Shown here: in pieces, positions 45,499-49,607 of the stretch | Numbering within the stretch: the stretch's first letter is position 1 | How the letters are laid out: the number at the start of each line of letters is the position of its first letter | NCBI GenBank assembly: GCA_000002445.1 | Contig: CP000071.1 | Coordinates: 608,001-672,000, forward strand | Origin: Trypanosoma brucei | Lineage: Eukaryota | Reading direction: 5' to 3' | Length of the DNA stretch: 64,000 nt | The notes under the pieces: generated by a model | What the model was told of the DNA's origin: nothing | Database searches by the model: none | Seen by the model: only the letters and a program-made list of their open reading frames with translations | Position numbers and translations under genes: made by a program

Positions 45499-45913
45499 GT
45501 GCCAGTGATTATACGTAATGTCTTTGCTACAGGTGATTGTACGATATGACCATACCGACTAAACCAACCGAGATCAATGAGGCATGAAATGTTCCCGCCC
45601 TGTTTTCAATTAAGTGACGGTGTGATTACAGACAGGACGTAAGTGAGTCAATGTCAATATCTCCGTATTACACCATGAGGACTATTGTCCCCCGTGTCTG
45701 ACCGCCGCTTCCACCTCCTCTCTCCCTTCTTTTCTCCTTTCTTGTTTCTTCTCTTTCACTTACACATGATGTCATTTCGTATTCTGCAATACTGACAATA
45801 ACTTGAGCGAGACAAGACATATTTGACTACTGGCAACTGAAACCCGCCACCCTCTCGGATTCTTTGGTCCTCCACTAGTTACTCAACGGTATTTCACTTT
45901 AGCTCAGCGTATA
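45499..45913 (+). repeat. Direct repeat A, copy 1 (415 bp), near-identical to 49193-49607; contains a strong polypyrimidine tract
   Basis: Base-by-base comparison with copy 2. Identity begins at gtgccagtgattatacg and ends at tagctcagcgtata. Only one mismatch noticed (ccctg versus ccccg). Contains cctcctctctcccttcttttctcctttcttgtttcttctctttcac. Confidence 0.85.
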
Positions 45914-45985
45914 TATGAATATAACGTCCACGGAGCTATAAGATGTTCCCATTACCTACCTTTATTGTTATCACGAGGCTCAAAA

Positions 45986-46357
45986 GAACACACTGAGCGT
46001 GTACCAATGCCCAGTGAGTGGGACAGCCATCGAAGATAAGTGTTTGTTTTACGGCAATGAGGTTCGAATGCGCCTGACGGTTTTTGTCCGACGTGGTGTG
46101 GGAAACGCCTCAAAGAAGTTACTGCACCTACACCTTCATTTTCACGGGTATATATTATCCCTGGTCACTAATTGATGTTTGGTATGTTTAATCTGTCACT
46201 GAACACTACTCACTTGTTTCCCCAGTGTAAGTGTGTTATCTTTCCCGTCTGTGCATTCACATGAATTTTAACTTTTATTACTCATAAATTATGTTTTGCC
46301 TCAATTATATAGACACCGCTTTATACGCAATTTTAAGCAAGGAAGTCCAACAAGGTG
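45986..46357 (+). repeat. Direct repeat B, copy 1 (about 372 bp), the 5' flank/5'UTR of MGCGGS paralog 1; about 99% identical to 47648-48020
   Basis: From gaacacactgagcgtgtaccaatgcccag through gtccaacaaggtga. Differences noticed: ggtcactaattg versus ggtcaccaattg and caaggaagtcc versus caagaaagtcc. Contains a polypyrimidine tract and AG (cttgtttccccag at about 46213-46225) about 140 nt before the ATG. Confidence 0.85.
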
Positions 46358-46364
46358 AATTATA

Positions 46365-46964
46365 ATGGGTTGTGGAGGTTCAGCTCCTGCTAACAAAGAC
46401 AAGCATGTGGGTGCAGATCCACCAAAACCTTCAGAGCATTCGGAACATTCAAAACCTTCAGATCCTTCAGATCCTGCTGATGCTACTCGATTTAAGCAGT
46501 TTTGCACACTTCCACTACATGACAAGGATAAGCCAGTTGCTGCTGCAGCAATTAGGGTTACCGACCCCAAGTGTATTTCGGATATTTTACCTCCGGAATT
46601 CCTTGAGGGAAAGAAGGTGCATAATGAATTTTGTGCAATTACTCTCTCCTTCGATGATGGAAAGCCGGAGGATGAAGGCCTTTTTGAGAAGTTGAAGGAA
46701 TTGGAAGGTACTTCCATCGAATTGAAACCAACCCATATTGTGATGAATGAAAAAGTCGCCGCCATTGGGGTGTGTAATAATGATGAATTCCCCTGCCAGG
46801 ACGCACACCCGCATATCCTCGTTGCAACTGCTCCAGATGCCACACAGGAAGATATTGATGATGTAACCAAGAAAGGAAAGATTAAGATATTTTGCGCGAG
46901 AAAACTTCCCGATCTGCCACCTGATATCACCATCCCAGGCGAGTTTCGTTTCATGCACTGGTGA
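46365..46964 (+). CDS. N-terminally dual-acylated (MGCGGS) 2H-phosphoesterase-like protein, paralog 1 (199 aa), with both HxT catalytic motifs degenerate (predicted inactive)
   Basis: Starts MGCGGS (Gly2 myristoylation, Cys3 palmitoylation consensus). About 50% identical to paralog 2. Positions matching paralog 2's HITT and HPHITIAT are EFCAITLSF (His to Cys, Thr to Ile) and HPHILVAT (Thr to Leu). A Pro/Ser/Glu-rich N-terminal linker lies between the acylation site and the domain. Confidence 0.6.
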   Translation: MGCGGSAPANKDKHVGADPPKPSEHSEHSKPSDPSDPADATRFKQFCTLPLHDKDKPVAAAAIRVTDPKCISDILPPEFLEGKKVHNEFCAITLSFDDGKPEDEGLFEKLKELEGTSIELKPTHIVMNEKVAAIGVCNNDEFPCQDAHPHILVATAPDATQEDIDDVTKKGKIKIFCARKLPDLPPDITIPGEFRFMHW

Positions 46965-47647
46965 GTATTTCCCTGTTCCTTGTGTTTCAATGGTTTCACA
47001 AGAGTACATATGAATTGTTGTAAGTGTGCTGGCAGTTGCTGTTACTCTGATCGATCAAAGAGTTAGTGGTACTGCGCTTCATTACTTTATTACTTTTGCT
47101 ATTTTGTTTTACGAATTTACTTGCCTTTGTCCCTTCTTACTTTCCTTTTGATAACCTTTAGATATTTGCGTGTGGAGGTTTTGGTTTACTGTTATCCACA
47201 TCTGGGGCTATATTCCCTTCATTTGAATTTTATTATTGCGGTATTGACTTTTTCTTTCAAAGAAGATGATGAACATTGGAATAACGAATAGGGACGATAC
47301 GAGGGGAATGAAGAAAAGGCAGAAAAATGATACGGAGAGGAGGGAAAGACAAAATACAAACAACATGTGGGAGAGATATTTTTGCTTTGCTTTGGTTTGA
47401 TATCTGTTTTGTTTGTTTTTTTTCGTTGTGTTCGATGTTTTTTTGATCTTATTTTCCGAGACTTTATTATACAGGATTTGTTTAACTTATGTACTTTATT
47501 ACCTATTGCTTGTGTGCCATTGTTGTGTTACTATGAAACATTTATTGGTGTGGCAGAATAAAATGTGTTTTGGCATTGCTTTCCACAAGTAACCGAAGGG
47601 CACCAAATATTTGCTACGGGAGAGCACTGAAATGAAAGGAAACAACT

Positions 47648-48020
47648 GAACACACTGAGCGTGTACCAATGCCCAGTGAGTGGGACAGCCATCGAAGATA
47701 AGTGTTTGTTTTACGGCAATGAGGTTCGAATGCGCCTGACGGTTTTTGTCCGACGTGGTGTGGGAAACGCCTCAAAGAAGTTACTGCACCTACACCTTCA
47801 TTTTCACGGGTATATATTATCCCTGGTCACCAATTGATGTTTGGTATGTTTAATCTGTCACTGAACACTACTCACTTGTTTCCCCAGTGTAAGTGTGTTA
47901 TCTTTCCCGTCTGTGCATTCACATGAATTTTAACTTTTATTACTCATAAATTATGTTTTGCCTCAATTATATAGACACCGCTTTATACGCAATTTTAAGC
48001 AAGAAAGTCCAACAAGGTGA
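47648..48020 (+). repeat. Direct repeat B, copy 2 (5' flank of MGCGGS paralog 2)
   Basis: See copy 1. Similarity continues into the first codons (atgggttgtggaggttc). Confidence 0.85.
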
Positions 48021-48023
48021 CTG

Positions 48024-48584
48024 ATGATGGGTTGTGGAGGTTCTAAATTGTCTGCTAAGAGCAAACAAGCGGATGCGGATCCACCAAAGCCTTCAGATCC
48101 TGCTGATGCTCATCGATTTGAGCGGATTTGTACACTTCCACTACATGATGGTGAGAAACCGATGATCTTCGGTGCAATTATGATAAATGATCTTGCCGCG
48201 GTCAGATCCCTTGTGCCTGCAGATTACCTTGAGGGCAAAAATATGCAGGATGAATTTCACATAACTACAATTTATCTTGGGGGGAAACCGCCACAAGACG
48301 ATGAACTTTTCAAAAAGTTACAAACGTTGGAAGGTACTTCCATCCAGGTGGCACCTGTCCGTATCGCGTCCGACGCAAAGGCAACAGCAATTGAAATTCG
48401 TAACAATAACGAATTCCCATGCCAAAATGTACACCCGCACATTACCATTGCTACTGCTCCCGGTGTACCAGCGAAGTATAGCAATGAGCTGCTAAGCAAA
48501 GTAAGCACTGAAACAAGCGACATCAAGGTAATGGAGTTGTCACCTGATGTATCCATTTCAGGTGTGTTTCAGTTTGTGCGGTGA
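48024..48584 (+). CDS. N-terminally dual-acylated (MMGCGGS) LigT-like 2H phosphoesterase, paralog 2 (186 aa), with both HxT motifs intact (predicted active)
   Basis: EFHITTIYLGGKP (compare LigT-type motif 1, HxTLxFLG) and NEFPCQNVHPHITIATAP (compare motif 2, PHITLAR). The two His residues are about 60 aa apart in a domain of about 150 aa. The N-terminus is MMGCGGS; the first ATG is likely skipped or Met1 removed. The family assignment rests on motif pattern only. Confidence 0.6.
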   Translation: MMGCGGSKLSAKSKQADADPPKPSDPADAHRFERICTLPLHDGEKPMIFGAIMINDLAAVRSLVPADYLEGKNMQDEFHITTIYLGGKPPQDDELFKKLQTLEGTSIQVAPVRIASDAKATAIEIRNNNEFPCQNVHPHITIATAPGVPAKYSNELLSKVSTETSDIKVMELSPDVSISGVFQFVR

Positions 48585-49192
48585 TGAACACCTCTTTCTT
48601 CATGTTCTTTTCGGTATAACCTACAGAAGTAACGATGAGTACATTAACGGTTGTTGTTTGTTGTGCTCATCGATGAGGCATTAATACCACCCTTTGTTTT
48701 TCCTTTTTTTCTTCTTTGAATCATTAATAAATTTTATCTTGCTTTGTACAAACAATTTTACGTGATTTATTTTGTCCTTAGACGTAGACAATAATTTTGA
48801 TGATAGTGTTTATGTGGACGAATATATTTCTCTCCTTTGCAATTCACGATTGGATCCAAGTATATTGATGGGAACTTGTGACTTAGGGGAAACGAGTGGT
48901 GTGCTGACATGCTCTCGCAGCACTGATATTCCCCCATAATGCTATGCACTCTGAACTGCATGTGTTGTGTCTGTGTGTATGTGTATACATGGTGTGTCGT
49001 ATGTCCTTTTTGTCTCTGTACAACAATAACCTTATACTACGCATCTTGTTACATTCCAACTTTTTCTCTCTAAAAATATACCTAATTTTACAACAAATTA
49101 GGAGGAGGAGGAGTGTGTCTTAACATTGTTTATGTGCCGTATCGTGATGACAGATATTCAGCTGACGCCACACTCATCGGATGTAAGAAAAT

Positions 49193-49607
49193 GTGCCAGT
49201 GATTATACGTAATGTCTTTGCTACAGGTGATTGTACGATATGACCATACCGACTAAACCAACCGAGATCAATGAGGCATGAAATGTTCCCGCCCCGTTTT
49301 CAATTAAGTGACGGTGTGATTACAGACAGGACGTAAGTGAGTCAATGTCAATATCTCCGTATTACACCATGAGGACTATTGTCCCCCGTGTCTGACCGCC
49401 GCTTCCACCTCCTCTCTCCCTTCTTTTCTCCTTTCTTGTTTCTTCTCTTTCACTTACACATGATGTCATTTCGTATTCTGCAATACTGACAATAACTTGA
49501 GCGAGACAAGACATATTTGACTACTGGCAACTGAAACCCGCCACCCTCTCGGATTCTTTGGTCCTCCACTAGTTACTCAACGGTATTTCACTTTAGCTCA
49601 GCGTATA
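49193..49607 (+). repeat. Direct repeat A, copy 2 (415 bp), about 145 bp upstream of the next CDS
   Basis: See copy 1. The two copies bracket a 3.7-kb segment carrying both MGCGGS paralogs. Confidence 0.85.

What the first reader, a model, noticed from the sequence alone, without database searches (positions are those of the whole stretch)
45499..49607. Homogenised flanks and diverged coding sequences at the MGCGGS locus
Two repeat families surround the paralogs. Repeat A (415 bp, at least 99% identical) occurs once just downstream of the BEACH gene and again about 145 bp upstream of the cyclophilin-like gene, bracketing a 3.7-kb segment. Repeat B (about 372 bp, about 99% identical) lies immediately upstream of each paralog and runs into the first codons. 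The coding regions are only about 50% identical at protein level. This is the reverse of the usual trypanosomatid tandem-array pattern, where CDS are homogenised and UTRs drift. It suggests one of three things. The first is selection on a shared 5'UTR/upstream regulatory element for co-regulated, possibly stage-specific, expression. The second is gene conversion restricted to the flank. The third is that the A-B-gene block was inserted between A and the downstream gene by A-mediated recombination. A direct repeat pair of 415 bp is also a ready substrate for deletion of the whole locus by homologous recombination, so copy-number polymorphism between strains is plausible.
Basis: seen in the sequence. 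Interest (0 to 1): 0.7.

Follow-up and report, generated by a model that had tools for sequence, protein, structure and literature searches.

The report
Repeated snoRNA gene cluster, not UTRs
The two near-identical repeats around these diverged Trypanosoma brucei genes are copies of a known cluster of small nucleolar RNA genes (TB8Cs3) that gene conversion keeps identical, so the pattern is real but has an ordinary explanation.

Summary
Repeat A is 415 bp with 414/415 identical bases. Repeat B is 373 bp with 2 mismatches and runs into codons 1-6. The two proteins are 42-45% identical. These are the only internal repeats in the 64-kb window.

The repeats are not UTR elements. They are the two halves of snoRNA cluster TB8Cs3. 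A carries three C/D snoRNAs (C1, C2, C3). B carries the 3' part of an H/ACA-like RNA (probably H-1), the whole of H1 (Rfam RF01550, 80.5 bits in both copies) and 245 bp of 5' flank.

In T. melophagium and T. theileri the same cluster lies as A-H-A directly upstream of the same cyclophilin-like gene, with no protein genes inside. Its copies are about 99% identical within each species and 60-78% identical to T. brucei.

In T. b. equiperdum, six B sites and one A site carry strain-specific alleles shared by all paralogous copies. No site groups the copies by orthology. That shows ongoing gene conversion. Conversion fades into the coding sequence: 0.5% divergence in the flank, dS 0.43 in codons 1-55, and dS about 2.2 beyond.

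The two genes are lineage-specific relatives of the tRNA-ligase CPD domain, lodged inside the snoRNA array. The cluster itself is already known.

The parts
36203..45307 (+). BEACH-domain gene (upstream context)
   Evidence: 3034-aa ORF. The syntenic gene in L122 carries PF02138 Beach.
45499..45913 (+). Repeat A, copy 1: the C/D half of snoRNA cluster TB8Cs3
   Evidence: Self-BLAST gives 414/415 identity to 49193-49607. Homologous to the repeated unit upstream of the cyclophilin gene in T. theileri and T. melophagium.
45499..45585 (+). C/D snoRNA, assigned to TB8Cs3C1 (similar to yeast snR24 / human U24)
   Evidence: C box GUGAUUA at 45505-45511. D' GUGA at 45533-45536 preceded by the guide UCUUUGCUACAG. 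D AUGA at 45577-45580 preceded by AACCAACCGAGAUCA. Terminal stem UGCC/GGCA. By the fifth-nucleotide rule the guides select the C of GAUC*UUGG and an A 12 nt downstream in GUA*GC of LSU rRNA (positions checked on L003). These match the published TB8Cs3C1 sites LSU-alpha C1608 and A1620/G1621 (PMC9283944). Boxes and guides are conserved in T. melophagium and T. theileri. The core duplexes are only 8-9 bp against generic eukaryotic rRNA, because no T. brucei LSU sequence was available.
45617..45705 (+). C/D snoRNA, assigned to TB8Cs3C2
   Evidence: C box GUGAUUA at 45622-45628, D' GUGA at 45643-45646, C' AUGAGGA at 45675-45681, D CUGA at 45698-45701. The D guide GUCCCCCGUGU pairs with SSU ACACG*GGG and selects a G, as published for SSU G1603. 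Conserved across species, with a strong terminal stem in T. melophagium.
45760..45846 (+). C/D snoRNA, assigned to TB8Cs3C3
   Evidence: C box AUGAUGU at 45766-45772. D' CUGA at 45792-45795 with guide AUUCUGCAAUA, which selects 5.8S AAUUG*CAG (G74 in L003; G75 published). D CUGA at 45837-45840 with guide UUUGACUACUGGCAA, which selects SSU UGCC*AGUAGUC (C18). This equals the published SSU_46 if that paper's numbering is offset by +28, and the same offset fits three other table entries. The 19-nt D guide is found exactly 246 nt upstream of the T. grayi cyclophilin gene.
45914..45985 (+). Single-copy spacer between A1 and B1; it holds the 5' strand of the H-1 outer stem
   Evidence: No counterpart next to B2 or A2 in the window. 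It is present next to the third cluster copy in L127.
45974..46039 (+). H/ACA-like snoRNA, probably the published TB8Cs3H-1 (complete copy)
   Evidence: Single hairpin with an AGA box at 46034-46036, followed by 3 nt. Folding energy is -20.6 kcal/mol, z = -2.7. The pocket sequences are conserved and the stems are kept, with two both-side changes, in T. melophagium and T. theileri. Matching this hairpin to the published name is my inference.
45986..46381 (+). Repeat B, copy 1
   Evidence: 373 bp with 2 mismatches to 47648-48020, plus the first 17 nt of the CDS.
46057..46119 (+). H/ACA-like snoRNA TB8Cs3H1, copy 1
   Evidence: Rfam RF01550, 80.5 bits against a gathering score of 45, full length.
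46120..46364 (+). Non-snoRNA part of B: the shared 5' flank of the two genes, presumably holding the splice acceptor and 5'UTR
   Evidence: No counterpart in T. melophagium, where the next cluster unit follows H1 directly. Contains a short pyrimidine tract followed by AG at about 46213-46225 (seen in the sequence). The function is inferred, not tested.
46365..46964 (+). gene1: MGCGGS-leader protein with a degenerate CPD (2H) fold, XP_847040
   Evidence: Identical to P0009. Pfam tRNA_lig_CPD scores only 13 bits, below the cutoff. Both HxT motifs are lost, reading CAIT and HILV.
46965..47647 (+). Intergenic region x (single copy in the window)
   Evidence: No significant similarity to y or to A plus the spacer. 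It is co-duplicated with gene1 at the second locus.
47648..48043 (+). Repeat B, copy 2, starting inside H-1 so that this H-1 copy is truncated at its 5' end
   Evidence: The fold of 47632-47704 lacks the outer stem.
47719..47781 (+). H/ACA-like snoRNA TB8Cs3H1, copy 2
   Evidence: Rfam RF01550, 80.5 bits.
48027..48584 (+). gene2: MGCGGS-leader protein with an intact CPD (2H phosphoesterase) domain, XP_847041
   Evidence: 100% identical to P0001. Pfam PF08302, E = 2e-11, with HITT and HITI motifs. The last 88 residues match the C-terminus of TREU927 tRNA ligase at 86/88 positions.
48208..49607 (+). Tract shared with the tRNA-ligase locus: the 3' part of the CPD, region y and A
   Evidence: 97.2% identical over 1405 bp to L127 8150-9549, which is the 3' end of the 847-aa tRNA ligase gene and its downstream flank.
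49193..49607 (+). Repeat A, copy 2 (C1 49193-49279, C2 49311-49399, C3 49454-49540), at the ancestral position upstream of the cyclophilin-like gene
   Evidence: The position is conserved in T. theileri, T. melophagium and T. grayi.
49751..50335 (+). Cyclophilin-like gene (downstream anchor for synteny)
   Evidence: Pfam PF00160. Identical to P0016, which was used to fetch the comparative loci.

Best explanation
Repeats A and B are copies of the two halves of the known T. brucei snoRNA gene cluster TB8Cs3.

- A encodes three C/D (2'-O-methylation guide) snoRNAs: C1, C2 and C3.
- B encodes the 3' part of an H/ACA-like (pseudouridylation guide) RNA, probably H-1, then the complete H1 and 245 bp of the 5' flank of the downstream gene.

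One complete cluster (A1, spacer, B1) lies between the BEACH gene and gene1. A partial copy (B2) lies upstream of gene2. Another partial copy (A2) lies upstream of the cyclophilin-like gene. All are on the + strand of one RNA polymerase II polycistron. By established knowledge of trypanosomatid snoRNA biogenesis, the snoRNAs are excised from the intergenic precursor RNA, so the repeats double the gene dosage.

Shown here: the ancestral arrangement is a tandem A-H-A array directly upstream of the cyclophilin-like gene. The cluster copies, including a third one about 38 kb away next to the tRNA ligase gene, are kept near-identical by recurrent gene conversion (concerted evolution).

Inferred: the two CPD-domain genes entered the array in the African-trypanosome lineage and were duplicated together with the H1 segment. 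Conversion tracts anchored in the snoRNA DNA run through the shared 5' flank and fade within the first ~55 codons. Beyond that point the coding sequences are too diverged to recombine.
For: (1) Rfam finds TB8Cs3H1 at full length in both B copies, at 80.5 bits against a cutoff of 45. It finds it nowhere else in the window.

(2) The literature lists C1-C3, H1 and H-1 as members of this cluster and gives their rRNA targets (PMC9283944; PMC4855143 supplement). Three C/D units in A have boxes, terminal stems and guides that select those nucleotides by the fifth-nucleotide rule.

(3) Between T. brucei and T. melophagium/T. theileri, the boxes, guides and pseudouridylation pockets are conserved while the rest varies. 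The H-1 and H1 hairpins are kept.

(4) Outgroup architecture. T. melophagium has C1-C2-C3-H-1-H1-C1-C2-C3 directly upstream of the cyclophilin gene, with a 425-bp repeat at 99.3%. T. theileri has the same layout with a 271-bp repeat at 98.9%. The T. grayi contig starts inside C3, upstream of its cyclophilin gene. None of these loci contains a free-standing CPD gene.

(5) Copies are about 99% identical within a species and 60-78% identical between species at the same chromosomal positions.

(6) Comparing TREU927 with T. b. equiperdum, six B sites and one A site carry a strain-specific allele in every paralogous copy (B1, B2, B3; A1, A2, A3). No site in the 373 bp groups copies by orthology.

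(7) Divergence rises in steps: 0.5% in the flank, dS 0.43 in codons 1-55, dS about 2.2 in the remainder. The T. b. equiperdum gene2 carries a gene1-type 12-codon block and RFKQFC, a strain-specific mosaic.

(8) All three mismatches between repeat copies lie outside the predicted snoRNAs.
Against: - The C/D assignments rest on motifs, cross-species conservation and complementarity to generic eukaryotic rRNA plus published site lists. I had no T. brucei rRNA sequence and no small-RNA reads.
- The C1 core duplexes are only 8-9 bp against generic rRNA, and its D box is the unusual AUGA.
- Equating my hairpin with the published H-1 is an inference.
- 'Insertion in T. brucei' and 'loss in the T. theileri group' are not resolved. 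The T. congolense and T. vivax cyclophilin loci could not be fetched.
- T. vivax lacks the cluster downstream of its tRNA ligase gene, so the ancestry of the second site is uncertain.
- The 245-bp non-snoRNA part of B could also be under selection as a shared 5'UTR. This was not tested.
- The T. b. equiperdum assembly may contain indel errors.
Confidence: 0.85

Rival explanations
1. Purifying selection on a shared 5'UTR or upstream regulatory element keeps B (and A) identical so that the two paralogs are co-regulated.
For: B ends at the start codon and includes a plausible pyrimidine tract, AG and 5'UTR (46213-46364, seen in the sequence). Both genes therefore probably share a 5'UTR. The leader MGCGGS is conserved.
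Against: About a third of B is snoRNA. A is not upstream of a paralog at all. Selection does not make paralogous copies share new strain-specific alleles, yet 6 B sites do so and none group by orthology. Identity ends at abrupt boundaries rather than decaying. The same repeats are about 99% identical in species that have no paralogs.
Confidence: 0.05
2. A and B are products of one or a few very recent segmental duplications, and their identity simply reflects youth. There is no ongoing conversion.
For: Long tracts of 97-99% identity link this locus to the tRNA-ligase locus (1.4 kb and 2.1 kb). The number of gene1-like copies differs between strains. B2 is a 5'-truncated copy of the H-1/H1 segment.
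Against: The same structure is present in a second strain whose flanks differ by about 1%. Within each strain all copies share private alleles. T. melophagium and T. theileri have copies about 99% identical at the same positions, while interspecies identity is 60-78%. That would require independent recent duplications into the same sites in each lineage.
Confidence: 0.1
3. The A pair was created when an A-B-gene block was inserted by A-mediated recombination, for example by integration of a circle.
For: Direct 415-bp repeats bracket the block. At the second locus, y-A-spacer is contiguous, which is the joint expected from A1 x A2 recombination.
Against: Outgroups already have A-H-A upstream of the cyclophilin gene with no block inside. 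The A pair therefore predates the genes, and only the cargo between H1 and the second A is new (or was lost in the outgroups).
Confidence: 0.1
4. The repeats are an assembly artefact, a collapsed or chimeric join.
For: The T. equiperdum OVI scaffold (L123) is misjoined at exactly these repeats, with an N run at 8215-8224.
Against: A gap-free chromosome-level assembly of another strain (L122) reproduces A1, B1, B2 and A2 in the same order, with the same unique flanks. A and B are also shorter than a Sanger read.
Confidence: 0.01

Closest known systems
Trypanosomatid repeated snoRNA gene clusters (Liang et al. 2005; Michaeli et al. 2012, PMC3273796), specifically cluster TB8Cs3 (Rfam RF01550 for H1)
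   Same: The locus has interspersed C/D and single-hairpin H/ACA-like genes in an intergenic region of a Pol II polycistron. They are repeated, and the repeats are near-identical. The H1 sequence matches the curated family, and the C/D guides match the published targets of C1-C3.
   Different: The second repeat unit is split. Its H1 part and its C/D part are separated by a protein-coding gene, and two CPD-like genes lie inside the array. One H-1 copy is truncated. The compact A-H-A form is seen in T. melophagium and T. theileri.
Concerted evolution of T. brucei tandem gene arrays by gene conversion or unequal crossing-over (Jackson 2007, PMC1855330)
   Same: Paralogous copies within a strain or species are more alike than orthologous copies. 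Conversion events affect UTRs and can span the start codon. Non-coding parts can be invariant while the CDS diverges (for example arrays Tb24, Tb62a and the BARPs).
   Different: The homogenised non-coding DNA is itself genic (snoRNAs). The exchange includes a dispersed copy about 38 kb away, whereas Jackson reported that ectopic conversion was rare.
[quoted passage not shown]
   Same: snoRNA genes sit in the intergenic or UTR regions of tandem protein-coding genes and are co-amplified with them.
   Different: In the tubulin array the coding sequences are also homogenised. Here they are saturated at synonymous sites beyond codon ~55.
Yeast snR24 / human U24 C/D snoRNA
   Same: C1 has two guides that target the conserved LSU segment GAUC*UUGGUGGUAGUA*GCAAAU, selecting a C and an A 12 nt apart. 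These correspond to yeast C1437 and A1449/G1450 (recalled from memory; the spacing and nucleotides were checked on L003).
   Different: The boxes are variant (C = GUGAUUA, D = AUGA). Homology in the strict sense was not tested.

Membership tests
Trypanosomatid H/ACA-like snoRNA TB8Cs3H1 (Rfam RF01550) | Match to the covariance model above the gathering score, at full length | tested here: met
   80.5 bits against a cutoff of 45, model positions 1-63 of 63, at 46057-46119 and 47719-47781. The family is also found in L122 (twice), L127, L124, L125 and L128.
Trypanosomatid H/ACA-like snoRNA (general) | Single hairpin with an internal pocket and an AGA box 3 nt from the 3' end | tested here: met
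   H1 shows this structure (alignment). The H-1 candidate at 45974-46039 has AGA at 46034-46036 plus 3 nt, and its consensus fold is kept in three species. The B2 copy lacks the outer stem.
Trypanosomatid H/ACA-like snoRNA (general) | Pocket complementary to an rRNA site carrying pseudouridine | not tested
   No T. brucei rRNA sequence was available. The published table gives only the rRNA each targets: LSU 5' half for H1 and SSU for H-1.
C/D box snoRNA | C box (RUGAUGA-like) near the 5' end, D box (CUGA) near the 3' end, and a short terminal stem | tested here: met
   C2 and C3 have a good C box and a canonical CUGA. C1 has GUGAUUA, the variant D box AUGA and a 4-bp stem UGCC/GGCA. All are conserved in T. 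melophagium and T. theileri.
C/D box snoRNA | Guide of at least ~10 nt directly upstream of D or D', placing a known 2'-O-methylated rRNA nucleotide opposite the fifth position | tested here: met
   C3 has 10- and 12-nt perfect matches selecting 5.8S G74/75 and SSU C18 (published SSU_46). C2 has 8-9 bp selecting an SSU G. C1 has 8-9 bp duplexes selecting an LSU C and an A 12 nt apart (against sites in PMC9283944). The test used generic eukaryotic rDNA, not T. brucei rRNA. The result is firm for C3 and weaker for C1 and C2.
C/D box snoRNA | Expressed as a stable small RNA bound by fibrillarin/NOP1 | not testable with these tools
   Expression of the named snoRNAs is published (read counts in the PMC4855143 supplement; NOP1-dependent methylation in PMC9283944). 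I could not map those reads to these coordinates.
Multigene family under concerted evolution | Paralogs within a genome are more similar than orthologs between genomes at conserved positions | tested here: met
   Within species the copies are 98.9-99.8% identical, against 60-78% between species at syntenic sites. Between the two T. brucei strains there are 6 (B) plus 1 (A) paralog-shared private alleles and 0 orthology-supporting sites.
2H phosphoesterase / tRNA-ligase CPD domain (PF08302), for the two flanked genes | Two HxT/S catalytic motifs and a Pfam match above the cutoff | tested here: met
   This holds for gene2 only: 44.2 bits against a cutoff of 23, with HITT and HITI. Gene1 does not meet it: 13.2 bits, with motifs CAIT and HILV. 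Gene1 is a diverged relative and probably not an enzyme.

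The most novel reading that the evidence does not exclude
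The snoRNA cluster copies act as portable blocks of homology. They have exchanged sequence between two sites 38-40 kb apart since before T. brucei and the T. theileri group diverged. In African trypanosomes they carried neighbouring coding DNA along with them. This produced a free-standing, N-acylated copy of the tRNA-ligase CPD domain (gene2) whose 3' half still evolves in concert with the ligase gene. It also produced a catalytically dead paralog (gene1) that varies in copy number. Gene2 keeps the first catalytic His, which the T. brucei ligase itself has lost, so gene2 might supply the CPD activity in trans.
Probability: 0.3. Interest if true: 0.55.

Novelty: already known. Interest (0 to 1): 0.3.

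Why it matters
The 'homogenised flanks, diverged genes' puzzle does not require a new regulatory element. The flanks are RNA genes of a described cluster, kept identical by gene conversion.

The practical lesson is that near-identical intergenic repeats in trypanosomatid genomes should be checked for snoRNAs before they are read as UTR elements.

Three details may be useful to specialists:
- The locus gives a clear, datable example of concerted evolution that includes a dispersed copy.
- It shows protein-coding genes nested within a snoRNA array.
- It links two lipid-anchored CPD-like proteins to the tRNA ligase gene.

Tried and rejected
- **Exact-protein look-ups.** Look-ups of gene1, gene2, P0001 and P0010 found no genomic contig. 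Only a 1.4-kb Logan contig was returned (L001). It breaks inside B at both ends, and its first 25 nt do not match the window. This is probably a repeat-induced join, so I did not use it.
- **Papers not held.** Liang 2005, Rajan 2020 and the L. major snoRNA paper are not in the library. The Michaeli 2012 and iScience supplements are not held either. I therefore had no published coordinates or sequences for C1-C3 and H-1.
- **Unbiased rRNA complementarity scan.** A scan of 44-51 kb for 10-mers complementary to rDNA gave as many hits as the same-sense control (82 against 96). Complementarity alone is therefore uninformative, and I accepted only hits adjacent to D or D' boxes at published sites.
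- **Kinetoplastid rDNA.** The metagenome scan returned only short SSU fragments from kinetoplastids, so the C1 and C2 duplex lengths in T. brucei remain unchecked.
- **Residual homology.** Sensitive local alignment of x, y, the spacer and the flanks of A found nothing above shuffled controls. This rules out a recognisable decayed 'middle A'.
- **H/ACA and C/D scans of x, y and the rest of B.** These gave no convincing further snoRNA.
- **Order of events.** I could not reconstruct the order of duplication events between the two loci. Several scenarios fit.

Full report

A self-BLAST of the 64-kb window returns only two repeat families.

Repeat A is 45499-45913 against 49193-49607. It is 415 bp with one mismatch, at 45601/49295.

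Repeat B is 45986-46358 against 47648-48020. It is 373 bp with two mismatches. Three of the six bases before the ATG differ, and the first 17 coding bases are identical. After that the sequences diverge.

Both repeats have abrupt outer boundaries. Sensitive local alignment of the sequences beyond them (x, y, the A1-B1 spacer and the flanks of A) gives nothing above shuffled controls.

The two proteins are 42% identical by BLASTP and 44.9% over aligned codons. Nucleotide identity is 62%.

The organism is T. brucei brucei TREU927, chromosome 8. Gene1 is XP_847040 and gene2 is XP_847041. An independent chromosome-level assembly of T. b. equiperdum (L122) has the same layout, so this is not an assembly artefact.

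**2. What the repeats are**

Rfam places the curated H/ACA-like snoRNA family TB8Cs3H1 (RF01550) at full length in both B copies. The hits are at 46057-46119 and 47719-47781, at 80.5 bits against a gathering score of 45. There is no other hit in the window.

The family name means chromosome 8, cluster 3. Published tables list further members of this cluster:
- C/D snoRNA C1 targets LSU-alpha C1608, A1620 and G1621.
- C/D snoRNA C2 targets SSU G1603.
- C/D snoRNA C3 targets SSU C46 and 5.8S G75 (PMC9283944 Table 2).
- A second H/ACA RNA, H-1, is also listed (PMC4855143 Table S1).

A box scan and the sequence ruler show three C/D units, and they fill repeat A.

*C3 (45760-45846).* The C box is AUGAUGU. 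A D' CUGA is preceded by AUUCUGCAAUA, and a D CUGA is preceded by UUUGACUACUGGCAA. These guides are perfect 10- and 12-nt complements of 5.8S AAUUGCAGAAU and of the SSU 5' end UGCCAGUAGUCA. The fifth-nucleotide rule selects a G at 5.8S position 74/75 and the second C of UGCC.

I first recalled these rRNA sequences from memory. I then confirmed them, and their positions, on a eukaryotic rDNA contig from a metagenome (L003) annotated with Rfam. The published 'SSU_46' fits if that paper numbers the SSU with an offset of +28. The same offset also fits its entries SSU_36 (U), SSU_56 (A) and SSU_66 (C).

*C1 (45499-45585).* It has GUGAUUA, GUGA and AUGA boxes and a UGCC/GGCA terminal stem. Its two guides select the C of GAUC*UUGG and an A exactly 12 nt downstream in GUA*GCAAA of the LSU. 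These are the spacing and nucleotides published for C1608 and A1620/G1621. The core duplexes are only 8-9 bp against generic rRNA.

*C2 (45617-45705).* It has GUGAUUA and CUGA boxes. Its D guide pairs with SSU ACACG*GGG and selects a G.

Repeat A begins exactly at the 5' end of the C1 terminal stem.

Immediately upstream of H1 there is a second single-hairpin RNA with an AGA box (45974-46039; -20.6 kcal/mol, z = -2.7). I take this to be H-1. The 5' strand of its outer stem (45976-45980) lies outside B, so the B2 copy is truncated and cannot form that stem.

The last 245 bp of B (46120-46364) is not snoRNA. It is the shared 5' flank of the two genes.

**3. Comparative evidence**

The cyclophilin-like protein served as a handle to fetch syntenic loci.

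In T. melophagium (L125, no gaps) the order is C1-C2-C3-H-1-H1-C1-C2-C3, followed 246 nt later by the cyclophilin gene. The A-type unit is a 425-bp direct repeat at 99.3% identity.

T. theileri (L124) has C2-C3-H-1-H1-C1-C2-C3 followed by the cyclophilin gene. It has a 271-bp repeat at 98.9%, and H1 scores 72.5 bits.

The T. grayi contig (L126) begins inside C3, 246 nt upstream of its cyclophilin gene.

None of these loci contains a free-standing CPD-like gene. 'A...A upstream of the cyclophilin gene' is therefore an ancestral tandem snoRNA array. In T. brucei the two protein genes sit between H1 and the next A.

Alignments of each snoRNA across species show the expected footprint. Boxes, guides and pseudouridylation pockets are conserved and everything else varies. 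The H-1 and H1 hairpins are retained, with a few changes on both sides of a pair.

Interspecies identity is 60-78%, while copies within each species are about 99% identical.

**4. Gene conversion is ongoing**

I aligned B1 and B2 of TREU927 with B1 and B2 of T. b. equiperdum (L122) and with a third copy from that strain, B3 in L127. Six sites carry one allele in every TREU927 copy and another allele in every equiperdum copy. No site within the 373 bp groups the copies by orthology.

Repeat A has one such site, 45766, which is the R position of the C3 C box.

Unique DNA in the two strains differs by about 0.8-1%.

Synonymous divergence between gene1 and gene2 rises in steps. The flank differs by 0.5%, dS is 0.43 in codons 1-55, and dS is about 2.2 (saturated) in the remaining 142 codons.

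The equiperdum gene2 carries a gene1-type 12-codon block and RFKQFC, which TREU927 gene2 lacks. Tracts therefore enter the N-terminal coding region to different depths in different strains.

It argues against selection on a UTR element as the cause of the identity.

**5. The wider picture (partly inferred)**

About 38 kb downstream, next to the tRNA ligase gene (847 aa, with kinase and CPD domains), T. b. equiperdum has the order CPD 3' end, y, A, spacer, B, gene1-like, x. This region is 97.2% identical to window 48208-49607 and 98.7% identical to 45499-47634.

In TREU927 the last 88 residues of the ligase match gene2 at 86 of 88 positions. By consecutive accession numbers (XP_847058-847062), three gene1-like copies follow the ligase gene. 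That compares with one copy in the equiperdum assembly.

The contiguous y-A-spacer joint is what recombination between A2 and A1 would produce.

T. melophagium also has a cluster copy downstream of its ligase gene. It is 99.1-99.8% identical to the copies upstream of the cyclophilin gene, about 40 kb away, and there is no free CPD gene. T. vivax has neither a cluster nor a free CPD gene there.

My reading is as follows. The snoRNA copies provide the homology that drives exchange within and between the two loci. The CPD-derived genes arose from the ligase gene and spread with the cluster in the African-trypanosome lineage. I could not resolve the order of events.

**6. Comparison with what is known**

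Repeated clusters that mix C/D and H/ACA genes are the standard organisation in trypanosomatids. They are transcribed polycistronically and processed from intergenic RNA (PMC3273796). TB8Cs3 is a described cluster.

Jackson 2007 found that in variable T. brucei arrays the non-coding parts are usually less variable than the CDS. That study also found that conversion events often involve UTRs and can span the start codon (PMC1855330). The pattern is therefore not 'the reverse of the usual'.

I did not find the following described:
- the split form of the second repeat unit,
- protein genes nested in the array,
- the truncated H-1,
- the participation of a dispersed copy in the homogenisation.

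**7. Verdict**

The core feature is a known snoRNA cluster evolving in concert, so novelty is low and I score interest at about 0.3. The more novel reading, snoRNA repeats acting as vehicles for moving and remodelling CPD-domain genes, is possible but unproven.

Noticed in passing
46365-46964 and 48027-48584: Both proteins start with MGCGGS, a likely N-myristoylation and palmitoylation signal (from general knowledge). Gene2 keeps both 2H-phosphoesterase HxT motifs (HITT, HITI). Gene1 has lost both (CAIT, HILV) and falls below the Pfam cutoff, so it is probably a pseudoenzyme.
   Followed up: partly
48208-48584; P0023 residues 760-847; L127 8150-8526: The 3' half of gene2 is nearly identical to the 3' end of the tRNA ligase gene about 38 kb away (86/88 residues in TREU927), and so is the downstream flank. 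In T. congolense, the last ~140 residues of the free-standing CPD protein (P0002) read almost the same as the C-terminus of that species' own ligase (P0024), compared by eye from the sequences. P0002 is only 59% identical to T. brucei gene2. The pair therefore seems to evolve in concert in both species.
   Followed up: partly
P0023 residues ~738-742 (outside the window), compared with window 48027-48584: The first catalytic HxT motif of the T. brucei ligase CPD domain reads D-I-S-T, with the His replaced. T. congolense, T. vivax, T. melophagium, T. theileri, T. cruzi and Leishmania tarentolae all have H-[IV]-T-[TN]. Gene2 keeps H-I-T-T. Gene2 might supply CPD activity that the ligase has lost.
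   Followed up: no
47593-47629: Just upstream of B2 there is a 12-nt complement of the LSU site GUAGCAAAUAUU. The target is partly from memory, and only 10 nt matched the fetched rDNA. The sequence UUUGCUACGGGAGA resembles the first guide and D' box of C1 (UUUGCUACAGGUGA), and a CUGA follows 9 nt later. There is no convincing C box. Matches of this length are expected by chance about 3 times in 7 kb. This could be a relic of a C1-like snoRNA or a coincidence.
   Followed up: partly
45702-45760 (and 49396-49454): A ~55-nt pyrimidine-rich tract lies between C2 and C3 inside repeat A. T. melophagium and T. theileri have pyrimidine-rich spacers at other positions in the cluster (between C1 and C2, and after C3). 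It may be a trans-splicing signal for the snoRNA precursor, or for the downstream mRNA.
   Followed up: no
L123 (T. equiperdum OVI scaffold) 8084-8225: This scaffold joins the tRNA ligase gene directly to gene2, y, A and the cyclophilin gene across a 10-N gap, deleting about 34 kb. This is a misassembly caused by the near-identical CPD 3' ends. It warns against using short-read assemblies at this locus.
   Followed up: partly
L001 1-25 (Logan contig ERR7929162): The first 25 nt upstream of position -53 of gene1 do not match the window anywhere. The break is where a k = 31 assembly graph would stop distinguishing B1 from B2. It is probably a graph artefact, or it may come from another B-like copy.
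   Followed up: partly
L122 6596-7234 (T. b. equiperdum gene1): The gene1 ortholog is called as 212 aa with a frameshifted C-terminus (P0014) and lacks three codons in the Pro/Ser-rich leader. This could be a real pseudogenisation or long-read indel errors.
   Followed up: no
Protein hits P0004-P0007: Apart from trypanosome proteins, the best matches to gene2 are short metagenomic proteins sharing HPHIT...GVPAKYSNELL. I did not examine their origin or relationship.
   Followed up: no
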